This document shows positions 6,907 to 14,247 of a stretch of DNA of 23,240 bases, one piece after another (the stretch's first letter is position 1; every line of letters starts with the position of its first letter). Under the pieces are notes generated by a model. It did no database searches, was not told the origin of the DNA, and saw only the letters and a program-made list of their open reading frames with translations. A program made the position numbers and the translations under genes. The DNA lies in UHGV virus genome UHGV-0143097; one strand, written 5' to 3'. Origin of the DNA: a virus.

Positions 6907-8734
6907 ATTTGAGCTTAAGGCGTTGATCACCGGTGTCGACAGGCTTTCTCCCGCGCTGTCGAAAATGCAAAAGAAAATCCGGGGATTTAAACGCCAGGCT
7001 GAAGAAGCGTCACAGGGTGGGCTGGCGCTTGGTGGCGGACTGGCTGCGGGTCTGACGCTTTCCCTGAAATCTTATGCCGATCAGGAAAATGCCGCCACCG
7101 GGCTGAAAGTTGCCATGATGGATGCGAACGGTGAGGTCGGAAAGCGCTTTCAGGACATCAATAAACTGGCTATTGGTCTGGGTAACCAGCTACCCGGTAC
7201 AACGGCTGATTTCCAGAACATGATGCAGATGCTGGTGCGTCAGGGGATCCCGGCAGAAAACATTCTGGGCGGTGTGGGTAAAGCGACAGCTTATCTTGCG
7301 GTACAACTGAAAAAAACACCGGAAGCGGCTGCCGAGTTTGCCGCAAAGATGCAGGATGCTACCGGAACGGCGTCAGAAGACATGATGGGGCTGTTCGACA
7401 CTATCCAGAAGGCGTTTTATCTGGGCGTTGACGATACCAACATGTTGTCCTTTTTCACTAAAACCAGTTCTGTTCTGAAGATGGTGAACAAGGACGGTCT
7501 TCAGGCTGCACAGAGCCTTGCCCCCATCAGCGTCATGATGGATCAGATGGGGATGAACGGGGAGTCGGCAGGTAATGCCCTGCGAAAAGTTATCCAGTCC
7601 GGATTAAGCGTTAAGAAAATCAGGGACGTCAATAAAATCATGGCCCGCCAGAAACTCGGAGTACAGCTCGATTTTACTGACGGCAAAGGGAGTTTTGGCG
7701 GTCTTGATAACATGTTCAGGCAACTGGCAAAGCTGCGAAAACTGACCGACGTCAAGCGAACAGGCGTACTTAAGGCAATATTTGGTGATGATGCCGAAAC
7801 CCTTCAGGTGGTCAATGCCCTGATCGATAAAGGAAAGGATGGCTACGATCAGATCCAGCAGAAGATGAATAAACAGGCCAGCCTGAATAAACGTGTTCAG
7901 GCTCAGCTTGGTACGCTGTCCAACCTGTGGGAGGCAATGACGGGGACCGCAACTAACGGCCTTGCGGCTATTGGCGGCGCATTTTCTGGTGACGCCAAAA
8001 ATATCACGCAATGGCTGGGGGAGTTGGGGGAAAAATTCACGAAGTTTGCGGATGAAAATCCCCGGGTTATTCGCGGCGTCGTCGGGCTTGCTGCCGGTCT
8101 TGCGATTCTGAAACTGGGATTGATGGGCGTGGGCAGTGCCATCAGTATTGTCAGCAGGATTATGTCGATGACGCCGATTGGCATGATTGCGACGGCGATT
8201 GCTCTGGCTGCGGGATTAATTATCACTAACTGGGATGTTGTCGGACCTTATTTTAAGAAGCTCTGGGAAACCATTGGTCCTTATTTTGAGGCTGGCTGGG
8301 AACTTCTGAAGAAAGTTTTTGCCTGGTCGCCGCTGGGAATGGTGATCAATAACTGGGGACCGGTTGTTAAGTGGTTTCAGGATATGTGGGACAAGCTGAA
8401 GCCAATTATTGAGTGGTTTACCGACAGTTCCGGTGACACGGTCGATGCCATTAACTCTGCGCAGTGGGGCGCGGGTGCTTATGATGCTTATGGGACGGGA
8501 ATACCGGCGCGGGGATACACACCTTATCCGGCGGTGGATCCGGCTCAGTCAAACAACGCCTCCGGTGCCACAGGCCCGAATCCCTTCATGATTAACAAAG
8601 CTTCTGCGCCAAAAGTTGATGGTGAGATCAAGGTATCTTTTGTGAATTCGCCTCCGGGGATGCGGGTTATGGAAACGCGATCCAGCGGTTTTGATATAAA
8701 TCACGATGTTGGCTATACGCATATTGGCAGATGA
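6899..8734 (+). CDS. Tail tape measure protein
   Basis: 611-aa protein rich in Ala/Gly with a hydrophobic segment, immediately after the chaperone pair; AGGAG upstream. Confidence 0.8.
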   Translation: MAEFELKALITGVDRLSPALSKMQKKIRGFKRQAEEASQGGLALGGGLAAGLTLSLKSYADQENAATGLKVAMMDANGEVGKRFQDINKLAIGLGNQLPGTTADFQNMMQMLVRQGIPAENILGGVGKATAYLAVQLKKTPEAAAEFAAKMQDATGTASEDMMGLFDTIQKAFYLGVDDTNMLSFFTKTSSVLKMVNKDGLQAAQSLAPISVMMDQMGMNGESAGNALRKVIQSGLSVKKIRDVNKIMARQKLGVQLDFTDGKGSFGGLDNMFRQLAKLRKLTDVKRTGVLKAIFGDDAETLQVVNALIDKGKDGYDQIQQKMNKQASLNKRVQAQLGTLSNLWEAMTGTATNGLAAIGGAFSGDAKNITQWLGELGEKFTKFADENPRVIRGVVGLAAGLAILKLGLMGVGSAISIVSRIMSMTPIGMIATAIALAAGLIITNWDVVGPYFKKLWETIGPYFEAGWELLKKVFAWSPLGMVINNWGPVVKWFQDMWDKLKPIIEWFTDSSGDTVDAINSAQWGAGAYDAYGTGIPARGYTPYPAVDPAQSNNASGATGPNPFMINKASAPKVDGEIKVSFVNSPPGMRVMETRSSGFDINHDVGYTHIGR

Positions 8735-8750
8735 CGGAACCAGATATAAT
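8724..8750 (+). promoter_or_regulatory. Candidate sigma-70 promoter of the moron
   Basis: -35 TTGGCA (8724-8729), 15-bp spacer, consensus -10 TATAAT (8745-8750), placed about 37 bp upstream of the moron ATG at the 3' end of the tape measure gene. Confidence 0.4.
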
Positions 8751-8786
8751 TTGTCTTTAAGTTTGTTATCAACTGAAGGGAAATCT

Positions 8787-9164
8787 ATGGGTCTGTTACA
8801 TGCCATTATAGGTAATGCCGGTGAAATTAATGCATCAGATGCACAACAGGAATTAGGGGCTGTTTTAGGTGAGGGAGAAAATGTCGAACTTGCCTATAAA
8901 CTCATTCGTGACCAAATTATTCTGACTAACAGAAGGTTAATTTTTATTGATAAGCAGGGTGTCACAGGGAAAAAAGTCGAGTATCGTTCGATTCCATATA
9001 AATCTGTGACAAACTTTTCTATTGAAACCGCCGGGCATCTTGATCTTGATGCTGAAATGAAGATATGGATTTCTGGTATTGCAGAACCGATAAAAAAACA
9101 GTTCAGTAAAGGAGCAAACATTTATAAATTGCAGGCCCATCTGGCTCAAAAAATAGCAGGGTAA
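8787..9164 (+). CDS. Moron: 125-aa bacterial PH-like (DUF1696-type) protein
   Basis: ATG at 8787 with GAAGGGAAA RBS; AT-rich by eye relative to flanking tail genes; motifs RRLIFIDKQGVTGKKVEYRSIPY and LDAEMKIWISG resemble small bacterial PH-domain proteins (from memory). Confidence 0.6.
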   Translation: MGLLHAIIGNAGEINASDAQQELGAVLGEGENVELAYKLIRDQIILTNRRLIFIDKQGVTGKKVEYRSIPYKSVTNFSIETAGHLDLDAEMKIWISGIAEPIKKQFSKGANIYKLQAHLAQKIAG

Positions 9165-9188
9165 ACCTTACATTAATTTATGTCTTTC

Positions 9189-9214
9189 ATGCCCACTTCG
9201 GTGGGCATTTTTAT
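9189..9214 (+). terminator. Rho-independent terminator of the moron
   Basis: Perfect hairpin ATGCCCAC-TTCG-GTGGGCAT followed by TTTTAT. Confidence 0.65.
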
Positions 9215-9227
9215 ATCCGGAGTTTAT

Positions 9228-10505
9228 ATGACGTGGAAAGGCAGGCTTCAGGACGCGTCATTTCGCGGCGTGCCGTTTAAGGTCGAAGAAGAAAGTGCGG
9301 GAACAGGTCGCCGTGTGGAAACGCACGAATACCCGAACCGCGACAAACCCTATACCGAAGATCTGGGAAAAGTCACTTTCCGCCCGTCCATCACGGCTTA
9401 TGTGGTGGGAGATGACTGCTTTGACCAGCGCGATCGCCTGATTGACGCGCTGAATAAACCCGGTCCCGGCACGCTTGTCCATCCGACATACGGTGAGCTG
9501 AAAGTCTGTGTTGACGGGGAAGTTCGGGTCAGCACATCGAAAAGTGAAGGACGTATTGTCCGCTTTGACCTGAAGTTTGTCGAAGCAGGAGAGCTCTCTT
9601 ACCCCACATCAGGTGCGGCGACGGCGCAGACGCTGATGTCATCCTGTTCTGCACTGGATGACTGCATCAGTGACAGCTTCAGCGGTTTCAGTATCGATGG
9701 CGTGGCGGATTTCGTGCAGAACGACGTTATCGGTAATGCCTGCACAATGCTTGGGTATGTTTCTGATGCGATGAAAGTGGTGGATTCTGCCGTATCGGAT
9801 GCCGCCAGGCTGTTGCAGGGGGATATCTCGGTACTTCTGCCGCCGCCATCGTCAGGCAAAAATTTCGTTGAGCAGGTGCAGAAAATGTGGCGTACCGGGA
9901 AACGCCTTTATAGTAACGCCAGCGACCTAGTCACCATGATCAAAACGCTTTCCGGTATCAGCCTCGGCAGCGATCTGCAACCGCGCGGCGTCTGGAAAAC
10001 GGACAGCAAAACTACCGCCACGGCAACGCAGCAGCGCAACGTGGTTGCCAGTACCCTTCGTACTACCGCAATCAGCGAAGCGGCATATGCCGTCACCCGA
10101 TTGCCTGCGCCCACATCTTCCGCAGTGATGCAGAATGCCGCAGTGGGGCAGTCAACAACACCCGCGCAGAGCACCGGCTGGCCTTCCGTCACGCATCCGG
10201 CACTGAACAATGCACCGGCGGTGAAAAACACGGTTGATCTGCCAACGTGGGAAGAACTGACCGACATTCGCGACACGCTGAATACGGCAATTGATAAGGA
10301 GTTGTCCCGTACAACCAGTGATGCGCTGTTTCTGGCGCTGCGCCGGGTGAAAGCAGATCTGAATGCGGATATCAACACGCGCCTTGAACAGTCTGCGCGG
10401 ATCATTCAGCGCACGCCGGATGAGGTTTTACCCGCGCTGGTGCTGGCGGCGACCTGGTTTGATAACGCGGCGCGTGACGCGGACATTACCCGGATATTAT
10501 CGTGA
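9228..10505 (+). CDS. DNA circulation protein (Mu gpN-like)
   Basis: 425-aa ORF after the tape measure, in the Mu N position; start placed at the ATG at 9228 (GGAG upstream) because the ORF-track start at 9180 lies inside the terminator hairpin. Confidence 0.6.
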   Translation: MTWKGRLQDASFRGVPFKVEEESAGTGRRVETHEYPNRDKPYTEDLGKVTFRPSITAYVVGDDCFDQRDRLIDALNKPGPGTLVHPTYGELKVCVDGEVRVSTSKSEGRIVRFDLKFVEAGELSYPTSGAATAQTLMSSCSALDDCISDSFSGFSIDGVADFVQNDVIGNACTMLGYVSDAMKVVDSAVSDAARLLQGDISVLLPPPSSGKNFVEQVQKMWRTGKRLYSNASDLVTMIKTLSGISLGSDLQPRGVWKTDSKTTATATQQRNVVASTLRTTAISEAAYAVTRLPAPTSSAVMQNAAVGQSTTPAQSTGWPSVTHPALNNAPAVKNTVDLPTWEELTDIRDTLNTAIDKELSRTTSDALFLALRRVKADLNADINTRLEQSARIIQRTPDEVLPALVLAATWFDNAARDADITRILS

Positions 10506-12495: not shown

Positions 12496-12628
12496 TTTTT
12501 GGGACTCCTGGCTGATTAAGTATGTCGATAAGGCGTTTCCATCCGTCACGTAATTTACGGGTAATTCGTTCAAGTAAAGATTCGGAAGGGCAGCCAGCAA
12601 CAGGCCACCCTGCAATGGCATATTGCAT
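12464..12628 (-). CDS. cIII: CIII, inhibitor of FtsH-mediated CII degradation
   Basis: Hand translation of the minus strand gives [54 protein letters not shown] (54 aa), which I recognise as lambda CIII; AAGGAG RBS. It is below the ORF-track size cutoff. Confidence 0.85.
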   Translation of the reverse strand: MQYAIAGWPVAGCPSESLLERITRKLRDGWKRLIDILNQPGVPKNGSNTYGYPD

Positions 12629-12700
12629 GGTGTGCTCCTTATTTATACATAACGAAAAACGCCTCGAGTGAAGCGTTATTGGTATGCGGTAACGCCGCGC

Positions 12701-13665: not shown

Positions 13666-14247
13666 ATGAACAACTCATGGTGGCAGGAACTAATGCATTT
13701 TTTCCTGCAAGGAATGACACTTAAACAGTTGATTCATATGCTAATCATCCTGATCATATTGATTATTGTTATGCCGGTAAGCGTAAAAGAATGGATAAAC
13801 CTGCATAATCCAGAAATCCTTCCTCATTACTGGATGTATTACATCCTGTTGTTTTGCGTTAGCTATGTGCTTAACGGCGTTGTTAATTCCGCTTATCACG
13901 CTGTGACTGAAAGAATTGAGGTATTCGCTGCTCAGAAGCGCAAATCTAAAGAAGAAAAATATGTGCAAGATTTGTTTGATTCGTTAACTCTTGGAGAAAG
14001 AGCGTATTTGGCATTCGCTGTAGCCGCGAATAACCAGCTAAAGACAGAAAAGGGAAGCCCTGAAGCAATCTCATTGCTCGAAAAAGGGCTTCTTATTCGG
14101 ATACCTTCTGCTACTGGATATCCTGAAATCGACCGTTTTGTTATCCCGGAACGCTATAGAAATGAGTGCTACATTAGGTTTGCTGGGAAGAAAGACAGTC
14201 TTATGGATGAACTTATCGCTCAGGATAAGCATGGCAAAAACAAGTAA
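13666..14247 (+). CDS. sieB: SieB, superinfection exclusion / abortive infection membrane protein
   Basis: 193-aa protein with hydrophobic N-terminal segments (MNNSWWQELMHFFLQGMTLKQLIHMLIILIILIIVMPV...), matching lambda SieB as recalled; transcribed against the early operon. Confidence 0.85.
   Translation: MNNSWWQELMHFFLQGMTLKQLIHMLIILIILIIVMPVSVKEWINLHNPEILPHYWMYYILLFCVSYVLNGVVNSAYHAVTERIEVFAAQKRKSKEEKYVQDLFDSLTLGERAYLAFAVAANNQLKTEKGSPEAISLLEKGLLIRIPSATGYPEIDRFVIPERYRNECYIRFAGKKDSLMDELIAQDKHGKNK

What the first reader, a model, noticed from the sequence alone, without database searches (positions are those of the whole stretch)
8724..9214. Self-contained moron (promoter, ORF, terminator) encoding a PH-like protein inside the tail gene cluster
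Between the tape measure and DNA-circulation genes sits a 125-aa ORF with a consensus -10 TATAAT, its own RBS and a perfect terminator hairpin directly downstream. It is AT-rich by eye relative to the tail genes and interrupts an otherwise tightly coupled operon. The protein resembles small bacterial PH-domain (DUF1696-type) proteins, whose function is unknown.
Basis: partly seen in the sequence, partly recalled or inferred. Interest (0 to 1): 0.6.

Follow-up and report, generated by a model that had tools for sequence, protein, structure and literature searches.

The report
PH-domain cargo gene in prophage tail operon
An AT-rich accessory gene for a small ring-forming bacterial PH-domain protein sits in a swap-prone slot between two tail genes of an SfV-like prophage; it is a typical prophage "moron", its role is still unknown, and the tail does not need it.

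Summary
Window 8787-9164 (+) is a 125-aa ORF with an RBS. Upstream is TTGGCA-15 nt-TATAAT, and downstream a UUCG-loop terminator hairpin. GC is 38% against 52-56% in the flanking tape measure (TMP) and DNA-circulation (gpN) genes.

The protein is a clear PF08000/PHb1 member (E=3e-48). It is 50-53% identical to the solved Shewanella ring proteins 3DCX/3HSA, and all eight ring-interface binding-site residues are conserved.

It is accessory. SfV, SfII and SfI have an empty site. Of 1094 complete E. coli genomes with this junction, 28 carry the gene, four of them with IS1 inside it. The same slot holds at least four other unrelated AT-rich cargo genes.

The cassette has moved between phage lineages, leaving a TMP-end scar in Edwardsiella phages. 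It is under strong purifying selection.

A similar hairpin is already present in the empty site, so this junction was never tightly coupled. The promoter has a suboptimal 15-nt spacer, reads TATAAC in Edwardsiella alleles, and is untested.

PHb1 homologues sit in lysogeny modules of unrelated phages, which points to expression in lysogens. Function remains unknown. This is a new member of a known kind and of moderate interest.

The parts
8690..8734 (+). Cargo-linked variable 3' end of the tape measure gene (left edge of the exchangeable cassette)
   Evidence: TMP genes of all cargo types are 94-100% identical to the window until about the last 45-90 nt. They then diverge in a way that tracks the cargo type.
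8724..8729 (+). -35-like hexamer TTGGCA (5/6), inside the last TMP codons
   Evidence: Read directly from the sequence. It is part of the only 11/12 promoter-like match in the window. It is conserved in the Edwardsiella cassettes.
8745..8750 (+). -10 hexamer TATAAT (6/6), 15 nt after the -35
   Evidence: It is identical in 11 IMG/VR E. coli-type copies and reads TATAAC in the Edwardsiella alleles. Activity is not tested.
8775..8780 (+). Ribosome-binding site GAAGGG, 6 nt before the ATG
   Evidence: GGAAGGGG is conserved in the Edwardsiella alleles.
8787..9164 (+). 125-aa PHb1 (PF08000 / DUF1696) gene with no hydrophobic segment
   Evidence: - Pfam bPH_1 at E=3.1e-48.
- PDB 3DCX and 3HSA at E about 1e-39, with 53% and 50% identity.
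- AlphaFold model with pLDDT 81; Foldseek TM 0.80/0.85 to 3DCX.
- Binding-site residues D42 D55 Q57 K63 E80 D86 D88 E90 are all present.
- Against the Edwardsiella alleles pN is 0.05-0.06 and pS 0.73-0.77.
9189..9213 (+). Intrinsic-terminator hairpin (8-bp stem, UUCG loop) plus T-run; right edge of the cassette
   Evidence: Sequence common to all + strand cargo types resumes at the T-run, before the shared gpN RBS.
9219..9230 (+). gpN RBS GGAG and ATG start (backbone, conserved in the empty site and in all + strand cargo types)
   Evidence: CCGGAGTTTATATG is shared by the window, SKA5 and M00057; SfV/SfII read CACGGAGTTTATATG or TACGGAGTTTATATG, and PD7 is close (TTCGGAGTGTATATG).

Best explanation
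**What it is.** The segment from about 8690 to 9213 is an exchangeable accessory cassette (a moron). It sits in a recombination hot spot between the tape measure and DNA-circulation genes of SfV-like, Mu-type-tail temperate phages. Its cargo is a functional, horizontally acquired PHb1 (PF08000) gene that plays no part in tail assembly.

**Shown here.**
- The gene is present or absent among near-identical tail modules.
- At least four alternative cargo genes occupy the same slot.
- The base composition is foreign.
- The cassette has transferred between phage lineages.
- The ORF is under strong purifying selection.
- The protein has the PH fold and a fully conserved ring-interface binding site.

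**Inferred mechanism.**
1. In a lysogen the gene is transcribed on its own from TTGGCA-15-TATAAT, with a start site near 8757, and transcription stops at the UUCG hairpin.
2. During lytic growth, Q-antiterminated late transcription reads through the hairpin into gpN.
3. By homology with 3DCX/3HSA, the 125-aa cytoplasmic protein assembles into pentameric dome-shaped rings. Their acidic inter-subunit sites bind a protein partner, probably a membrane-associated complex.
4. This alters the lysogen's envelope or stress physiology, or its sensitivity to superinfecting phage.

**My split for the physiological role.**
- Host envelope/stress function of the same kind as cellular PHb1: about 0.35.
- Phage exclusion or defence: about 0.25.
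- A lytic-cycle role: about 0.15.
- Something else: the rest.

The stated confidence (0.75) is for the core claim only: an accessory moron cargo that encodes a functional PHb1 protein and is not a tail component.
For: **Accessory nature and hot spot.**
- SfV, SfII and SfI have an empty site.
- 28 of the 1094 genomes with the junction carry the gene.
- An even sample of 60 junctions gave 2 PH, 29 empty, 16 with other cargo and 13 with only part of the query matched (12 gpN only, as in SfIV-type tail modules, and 1 TMP fragment).
- Counts of the other cargo types are 85, 79 and 55 genomes. A fifth type was also found. One cargo lies on the opposite strand.

**Compatible with viable phage.** The plaque-forming Edwardsiella phage EPP-1 and an apparently complete E. 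coli prophage both carry it.

**Mobility.**
- The Edwardsiella cassettes carry a decayed second copy of an E. coli-type TMP C-terminus, placed after their own TMP stop.
- The E. hoshinae prophage has 95-99% E. coli-type flanks around a 73-84% patch spanning about 8350-9215.

**Selection.** pN is 0.05-0.06 against saturated pS. Between EPP-1 and E. hoshinae pS is 0.20 with zero amino-acid changes.

**Signals.** Q antitermination in this phage group is described in PMC3851460.

**Protein.** The ring and binding site are described in PMC2817789.

**Expression in lysogens is suggested by position.** PHb1 genes lie co-oriented with the repressor and integrase in Lactococcus ul36, in a Vibrio P2-like prophage and in Peptostreptococcus-type prophages.
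Against: - There is no expression data.
- The promoter spacer is 15 nt, so it is not called by the standard 16-18-nt scan. The -10 reads TATAAC in all three Edwardsiella alleles, and no canonical promoter is found there.
- The terminator-like hairpin also exists in cargo-free phages, so it may serve the backbone.
- PHb1 has no hit to known defence models and no conserved gene neighbours.
- It is 60-66% identical across phyla, which is unlike fast-evolving defence or exclusion genes.
- The gene is disrupted by IS1 in 4 of 28 genomes, so it is dispensable at least there.
- In this window the tail module is a 5.1-kb remnant, so intactness here proves little.
Confidence: 0.75

Rival explanations
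1. Late-operon passenger. The gene has no working promoter of its own. It is made only during lytic growth by read-through from the tail operon, and it serves the phage at that stage, for example in timing, DNA delivery or host takeover.
For: - The gene has the same orientation as the tail genes and its own RBS.
- The promoter is non-canonical and is degenerate (TATAAC) in the Edwardsiella alleles.
- Late transcription in this phage group is Q-antiterminated and would pass the hairpin (PMC3851460).
- The gene has been retained under purifying selection in a plaque-forming phage.
Against: - The slot holds unrelated cargo genes, one on the opposite strand. Position in the tail operon therefore says nothing about function.
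- In at least three other phage lineages the homologue sits with the repressor and integrase, not with late genes; in Min1 it lies at the genome end.
- The 11/12 promoter match is unlikely by chance.
Confidence: 0.15
2. The gene is not an insertion. PH is an old resident of this tail module, and the 'empty' SfV-type junction is a deletion that kept the terminator and part of the leader.
For: - The empty site retains a hairpin with the same core as the PH terminator.
- It also shares a 9-mer, AGTTTGTTA, with the PH 5' leader.
- The E. coli-type and Edwardsiella-type PH alleles are as diverged (79% nt) as the tail genes of those lineages (72-77%).
Against: - GC3 is 0.30 against 0.57-0.63 in all neighbouring genes, so composition has not ameliorated.
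- The Edwardsiella cassette carries a duplicated relic of a foreign TMP end, which is a scar of acquisition.
- The 9-mer match is short, and the alignment to the 3' UTR is equally possible.
- Either direction leaves the gene accessory.
Confidence: 0.25
3. Dedicated anti-phage factor (superinfection exclusion or part of a defence system), analogous to HK97 gp15 or the lactococcal Sie proteins.
For: - The tail-operon moron next to a TMP gene has the same layout as HK97 gene 15 (PMC3594210).
- The alternative cargo genes in the slot are all envelope-targeted small proteins: a signal peptide, a lipobox or a TM anchor.
- Homologues lie next to defence-like genes. One neighbour is a SIR2 protein that hits PADLOC models. 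Another is a Schlafen/AlbA_2-HATPase protein.
- ul36 ORF124 occupies the integrase-adjacent slot where lactococcal sie genes lie (PMC6127208).
Against: - There is no TM segment; the maximum 19-residue hydropathy is 0.58.
- There is no PADLOC hit.
- The very high cross-phylum conservation and the many chromosomal, non-prophage copies with no defence context are atypical for exclusion genes.
- bIL285 'sie285' is only a distant bPH_3-SHOCT relative. The text available to me names only sie309 and sie312 as giving phage resistance and does not mention a result for sie285.
Confidence: 0.25
4. Decaying hitch-hiker with no function.
For: IS1 insertions in 4 of 28 genomes. The gene is rare. In this window it lies in a dead tail fragment.
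Against: Synonymous sites are saturated while only 5-6% of non-synonymous sites have changed. There are zero amino-acid changes at pS 0.20. All binding-site residues are intact.
Confidence: 0.03

Closest known systems
HK97 gene 15 moron (Juhala 2000; Cumby 2012; reviewed in PMC3594210)
   Same: A single small gene added inside a tail operon next to the tape measure gene. Its GC content differs from the neighbours, it has its own promoter-like and terminator signals, and it has bacterial homologues outside prophages.
   Different: gp15 is an inner-membrane protein with a shown exclusion phenotype. The PH protein has no membrane segment and no tested phenotype. The PH gene lies downstream of TMP, not upstream, and in a myovirus (Mu-type) tail module.
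PHb1 proteins of PF08000: Shewanella loihica 3DCX and S. amazonensis 3HSA (Xu et al. 2010, PMC2817789)
   Same: The same family (E about 1e-39, 50-53% identity), the same fold (TM 0.80-0.85), the same length, and all eight residues of the inter-subunit binding site.
   Different: Those are chromosomal genes, whereas this one is phage cargo. Ring assembly of this protein is inferred, not tested. The function of the whole family is unknown.
PHb1 genes in phage lysogeny modules: Lactococcus ul36 ORF124 and Microbacterium Min1 ORF77 (noted in PMC2817789)
   Same: Phage-borne PF08000 members in accessory positions, with the same invariant residues.
   Different: They are 34-38% identical to the window protein and lie next to the integrase/repressor or at a genome end, not in a tail operon.
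Cargo hot spots of temperate phages (for example the P2/P4 defence hot spots; recalled from my own knowledge, not checked here)
   Same: A fixed inter-gene slot in a conserved module that carries many alternative, AT-rich, unrelated genes across near-identical phages.
   Different: This slot lies between TMP and gpN of SfV-like phages. None of its five cargo types matches a known defence model. I found no paper describing this slot.

Membership tests
Moron (Hendrix/Juhala definition as given in PMC3594210) | Extra DNA absent from closely related phage genomes at the same site | tested here: met
   SfV, SfII and SfI have an empty site. 28 of the 1094 E. coli genomes with the junction carry the gene.
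Moron (Hendrix/Juhala definition as given in PMC3594210) | [quoted passage not shown] | tested here: met
   GC is 0.384 and GC3 0.302, against 0.52-0.56 and 0.57-0.63 in the neighbours.
Moron (Hendrix/Juhala definition as given in PMC3594210) | Own promoter | tested here: inconclusive
   TTGGCA-15-TATAAT is the only 11/12 match in the window, with P about 0.002 at this place. However, the spacer is 15 nt, the standard scan is negative and the Edwardsiella alleles read TATAAC.
Moron (Hendrix/Juhala definition as given in PMC3594210) | Own terminator | tested here: met
   An 8-bp stem, UUCG loop and T-run at -14.8 kcal/mol, z = -4.8. A similar hairpin also exists in the empty site.
Moron (Hendrix/Juhala definition as given in PMC3594210) | Expressed from the repressed prophage | not testable with these tools
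   This needs transcript or protein data from a lysogen.
Pfam PF08000 bPH_1 / PHb1 | Profile match above the gathering threshold over the full domain | tested here: met
   163.2 bits against a cut-off of 27.7, covering residues 3-122 of the protein and positions 2-121 of 122 in the profile.
Pfam PF08000 bPH_1 / PHb1 | PH-like beta-sandwich capped by a C-terminal helix | tested here: met
   The model has pLDDT 81.4. Foldseek gives TM 0.80/0.85 to 3DCX_A, followed by 3B77 and eukaryotic PH domains.
Pfam PF08000 bPH_1 / PHb1 | Conserved acidic inter-subunit binding site (D42 D55 Q57 K63 E80 D86 D88 E90 of PHb1(sl)) | tested here: met
   All eight residues are present, and numbering is identical to the query. 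They are invariant or nearly so in 26 homologues, including the phage copies.
Pfam PF08000 bPH_1 / PHb1 | Pentameric dome-shaped ring | not testable with these tools
   Only a monomer could be modelled. The ring is inferred from 50-53% identity to 3DCX/3HSA.
Superinfection-exclusion proteins of the gp15 / Sie type | Membrane insertion (TM or hydrophobic N-terminus) | tested here: not met
   The maximum 19-residue Kyte-Doolittle value is 0.58, so there is no hydrophobic segment.
Superinfection-exclusion proteins of the gp15 / Sie type | Blocks genome entry of incoming phage | not testable with these tools
   This needs phage challenge assays.
Known anti-phage defence systems (PADLOC-DB v2) | Match to a defence-protein model | tested here: not met
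   No family matched at E<=1. The ul36 and Vibrio homologues also gave none at E<=0.01.
Tail structural or assembly component | Conserved in all phages sharing the tail module | tested here: not met
   The gene is absent from functional SfV, SfII and SfI and from most E. coli prophages with the same TMP and gpN.

The most novel reading that the evidence does not exclude
The PHb1 ring is a prophage-delivered cap that docks on an inner-membrane protein complex. In doing so it protects the lysogen, either against envelope stress or by blocking the channel through which superinfecting phage DNA enters. If so, this easily cloned E. coli cassette would give the first function for PF08000, a family conserved at 60-66% identity from Clostridia to Gammaproteobacteria and uncharacterised since its structures were solved in 2008-2010. 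It would also define the TMP-gpN slot of SfV-like phages as a hot spot for lysogen-protection genes.
Probability: 0.2. Interest if true: 0.65.

Novelty: new member of a known kind. Interest (0 to 1): 0.35.

Why it matters
PF08000 is a widespread and unusually well conserved bacterial family with solved ring structures but no known function. Here one member is packaged as a roughly 520-bp cassette in E. coli prophages, alongside natural isogenic comparators: the empty site and at least four other cargo genes in the same slot. That makes the family's function directly testable in a model organism.

The work also documents a cargo hot spot between the tape measure and DNA-circulation genes of SfV-like phages. 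I did not find this slot described in the literature. Apart from that, the element is an ordinary prophage accessory gene.

Tried and rejected
- **Standard promoter scan (16-18-nt spacer).** It found nothing upstream of the PH gene in the window, in EPP-1 or at the other cargo genes.
- **PADLOC.** No hit for PH or for any alternative cargo.
- **PHROGs.** Only families of unknown function.
- **Rfam.** Nothing in the region except a sub-threshold isrB hit caused by the hairpin. There are no tRNAs.
- **Gene-neighbourhood clustering.** Across 52 species-representative loci I found no partner conserved beyond taxonomic synteny. Three individual chromosomal contexts were uninformative.
- **Literature.** Searches for a PF08000 function, for YvbH/YozO/YjqA, for the RefSeq accession and for a TMP-gpN hot spot gave nothing beyond Xu 2010 and the lactococcal prophage paper. 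Mahony 2008 could not be read.
- **bIL285 'sie285' as a homologous exclusion protein.** It is bPH_3 plus SHOCT, only 27% identical over 62 residues, so it is a weak lead at best.
- **EPP-1 TMP end.** I first read the TMP-end-like sequence in EPP-1 as the decayed end of EPP-1's own TMP. Translation showed EPP-1's TMP has its own complete C-terminus, so the extra copy is a foreign relic.
- **Identity to the PDB structures.** My early estimate of 57-60% was wrong. The counted values are 53% and 50%.
- **Source of the window.** The whole window is not present as such in any of 5426 complete E. coli genomes, and the source strain was not identified.
Full report
**1. The observation**

- An ATG at 8787 opens a 125-codon frame that ends at TAA 9164. 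The longer mechanical ORF from 8706 overlaps the tape measure gene. It is not supported, because homologues start at the same M-G.
- GAAGGG at 8775-8780 is a plausible ribosome-binding site.
- TATAAT lies at 8745-8750 and TTGGCA at 8724-8729, separated by 15 nt.
- The stem ATGCCCAC/GTGGGCAT with a TTCG loop lies at 9189-9208, followed by a T-run. It folds at -14.8 kcal/mol, z = -4.8 against shuffles.
- The ORF has GC 0.384 and GC3 0.302. The tube, chaperone, tape measure and gpN genes have GC 0.52-0.56 and GC3 0.57-0.63.
- The neighbours are a tape measure protein (PF10145, 6899-8734) and a DNA-circulation protein (PF07157, 9228-10505).

**2. The setting**

The window is a mosaic of prophage pieces.
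- An integrase and an SfV-like early region come first.
- A 5.1-kb fragment of an SfV-like, Mu-type tail module follows. It starts in the middle of the sheath gene at 5392 and ends 12 nt before the stop of a truncated gpN, at 10493.
- After that comes a lambda-like region: exo/bet/gam, sieB, N, cI, rusA, Q, a porin, lysis genes and an OspG/NleH-like kinase.

The tail module here is therefore dead. No complete E. coli genome in the collection holds the window as a whole.

**3. The gene is accessory and the site is a hot spot**

- SfV, SfII and SfI match the two flanks at 95-97% identity but lack about 433 bp. Their TMP stop and gpN start are 45-61 nt apart.
- Among 5426 complete E. coli genomes, 1094 hold this junction and 28 hold the PH segment. 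In four of these IS1 interrupts it.
- An even sample of 60 junctions gave:
  - 2 with PH;
  - 29 empty;
  - 12 with one of two genes of about 170-176 aa;
  - 1 with a 225-aa gene;
  - 3 with an OB-fold gene;
  - 12 in which only gpN matched;
  - 1 in which only a short TMP fragment matched.
- Direct counts of the other cargo types are as follows.
  - The SKA5 type (170 aa, signal-peptide-like N-terminus) is in 85 genomes.
  - The OB-fold type (tRNA_anti-like, membrane anchor, encoded on the opposite strand) is in 79 genomes.
  - The M00057 type (225 aa, lipobox LLGGC) is in 55 genomes.
  - A fifth, PD7 type (176 aa, N-terminal TM) was found but not counted.
- All the cargo segments have a lower GC content than the tail genes (GC 0.32-0.43 against 0.52-0.56).
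- All 13 IMG/VR contigs with a close PH gene have the order TMP-PH-gpN.
- PH-bearing phages can be complete and viable. E. coli isolate 362 has an apparently full prophage. Edwardsiella phage EPP-1 was isolated by plaque assay.

**4. Boundaries and mobility**

- TMP genes of all cargo types are 94-100% identical to the window until the last 45-90 nt. They then diverge in a cargo-linked way.
- On the right, common sequence resumes at the T-run and the gpN ribosome-binding site (TTTTTATATCCGGAGTTTATATG).
- Two observations show movement between lineages.
  - In the Edwardsiella phages the PH cassette follows the phage's own complete TMP C-terminus. It brings a decayed second copy of an E. coli-type TMP end (…VVMEFE*TQIG*IDVNHDAEHTSIGR*).
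  - The E. hoshinae prophage has tail genes 95-99% identical to the window on both sides, but an Edwardsiella-type patch (27-84%) from about 8350 to 9215.
- I could not decide whether the SfV-type empty site is ancestral or a deletion. It keeps a hairpin with the same core and shares a 9-mer with the PH leader.

**5. Signals**

*Promoter.*
- The standard scan (16-18-nt spacer) calls no promoter here.
- When spacers of 15-19 nt are allowed, TTGGCA-15-TATAAT is the only site in the window, on either strand, with at least 5/6 plus 6/6 matches. About 0.38 are expected per window.
- The chance of such a site on the + strand within 90 nt upstream of the ORF is about 0.002. The criteria were chosen after seeing the site.
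- All eleven E. coli-type IMG/VR copies keep it. The Edwardsiella alleles examined keep TTGGCA and the spacing but read TATAAC (the tested EPP-1 region gave no canonical promoter).
- Promoter activity is thus plausible in E. coli and doubtful in Edwardsiella.

*Terminator.*
- The terminator is strong. However, a similar hairpin sits in the empty site, where the SfII record annotates it as a terminator. Every + strand cargo ends in its own terminator just before gpN.
- So this junction was never tightly coupled, and the hairpin may serve the backbone.
- Late genes of this phage group are under Q antitermination (PMC3851460). That would let late transcription pass the hairpin.

**6. The protein**

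- Pfam bPH_1 (PF08000, formerly DUF1696) matches at E=3.1e-48 over the whole domain.
- The PDB sequences 3DCX and 3HSA match at E about 1e-39 without gaps, at 53% and 50% identity.
- An AlphaFold model (pLDDT 81.4) superposes on 3DCX at TM 0.80/0.85. It then hits 3B77 and eukaryotic PH domains.
- Xu et al. (PMC2817789) describe pentameric dome-shaped rings. A conserved, mostly acidic site is built from two adjacent subunits: D42, D55, Q57, K63, E80, D86, D88 and E90. All eight are present here at the same numbers. They are invariant or nearly so in 26 homologues, including the phage copies.
- There is no hydrophobic segment.
- The family is unusually conserved. Proteins from Photobacterium, Clostridium, Paenibacillus and Bacillus are 60-66% identical to the window protein.
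- Selection is strongly purifying.
  - Window against the Edwardsiella alleles: pN 0.05-0.06 with pS 0.73-0.77.
  - EPP-1 against E. hoshinae: pS 0.20 and no amino-acid change.

**7. Clues to the role**

- Chromosomal homologues are solitary genes without conserved neighbours.
- PADLOC has no model for the family. The PHROG family is of unknown function.
- In other phages the gene lies in accessory positions, in most cases co-oriented with the repressor and integrase.
  - Lactococcus ul36 has the order cI, protease, ORF355, PH, int.
  - A Vibrio P2-like prophage has cI, PH, a SIR2 protein and int. The SIR2 protein hits PADLOC models.
  - Peptostreptococcus-type prophages have HTH, Schlafen/AlbA_2-HATPase, PH and int.
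  - In Min1 it lies at the genome end.
- Xu et al. already noted ul36 and Min1. They also reported that B. subtilis YozO belongs to the sigma-W envelope-stress regulon and that YvbH fractionates with membranes. They proposed that the ring caps a membrane-associated complex through protein-protein contacts.
- The lactococcal 'sie285' gene is a PH-domain protein of another family (bPH_3 plus SHOCT) and only distantly related.

**8. Most likely mechanism**

*Shown:* this is an exchangeable, foreign-composition, selectively maintained cargo gene, not needed for the tail, that encodes a PHb1 protein with an intact binding site.

*Inferred:*
- It is transcribed in the lysogen from its own promoter, stops at the hairpin, and is read through during lytic growth.
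- The protein forms pentameric rings that bind a protein partner, probably at the membrane.
- This changes the lysogen's envelope or stress physiology, or its susceptibility to other phages.

The phage copy is nearly as conserved as the cellular ones. I therefore rate a host-type PHb1 function (about 0.35) slightly above a dedicated exclusion function (about 0.25). A lytic-cycle role gets about 0.15.

**9. Comparison with what is known, and novelty**

- The layout is that of the classic HK97 gene 15 moron next to a tape measure gene (PMC3594210). That product, however, is a membrane protein with a shown exclusion phenotype.
- Phage-borne PHb1 genes were noted in 2010, and RefSeq already names this one 'PH domain-containing protein'.
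- What I did not find described is the TMP-gpN slot as a multi-cargo hot spot.
- Verdict: a new member of a known kind. Interest is moderate, mainly as a handle on the unknown function of PF08000.

Noticed in passing
window 5387-5394 and 10490-10497: The 5.1-kb tail-gene fragment is bounded on both sides by the same 8-mer, CCGGATAT. The fragment starts in mid-sheath at 5392 and ends in gpN at 10493. On the left it is fused to a cro-like small ORF (ATG 5211), and on the right it abuts a lambda-like exo gene on the minus strand.
   Followed up: partly
L005 2850-2944 (Edwardsiella phage EPP-1); also L014 and L015: After the phage's own complete TMP stop lies a decayed second copy of an E. coli-type TMP C-terminus with two in-frame stops, directly upstream of the PH gene. 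It looks like a scar of cassette acquisition.
   Followed up: yes
L015 (Edwardsiella hoshinae NBRC 105699 prophage), equivalent to window 8350-9215: The tail genes are 95-99% identical to the E. coli-type window on both sides of an Edwardsiella-type patch of about 870 bp. This indicates recent exchange of tail modules between Escherichia and Edwardsiella prophages.
   Followed up: partly
L003 1914-2426; L010 1023-1700; L009 965-1411 (minus); L086 724-1254: Four unrelated cargo genes of lower GC than the tail genes occupy the same TMP-gpN slot in other E. coli prophages. Their products carry a signal peptide, a lipobox, or a membrane anchor (two of them, one being an OB-fold tRNA_anti-like protein). 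None has a PADLOC hit, and only the OB-fold protein has a Pfam hit.
   Followed up: partly
H62-H65 (four E. coli genomes), equivalent to about window 8876: IS1 is inserted inside the PH gene at the same position in four genomes.
   Followed up: no
L007 3450-5737 (Vibrio prophage 10N.286.45.B12_PE001); L082 713-2692: PHb1 genes lie directly beside defence-like genes between the repressor and integrase. One neighbour is a 612-aa SIR2 protein that hits PADLOC Aga-SIR2 and PDC-S65 models. The other is a 510-aa Schlafen/AlbA_2-HATPase protein. Whether PH works with them is unknown.
   Followed up: partly
window 12583-12641 (minus): Rfam match to the Lambda cIII thermoregulator element (88.5 bits), within the lambda-like gam/kil/cIII region.
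   Followed up: no
window 17798-18880 (minus) and 22300-23190 (plus): A porin gene lies between the Q antiterminator and the lysis genes, and an OspG/NleH-like kinase ORF lies downstream of the lysis cassette. These are further prophage cargo genes in the same window.
   Followed up: no
window 4445-5119 (minus), 15492-16208 (minus), 13666-14247 (plus): Two S24-peptidase cI-like repressors and a sieB homologue show that at least two prophage immunity regions are joined in this window.
   Followed up: no
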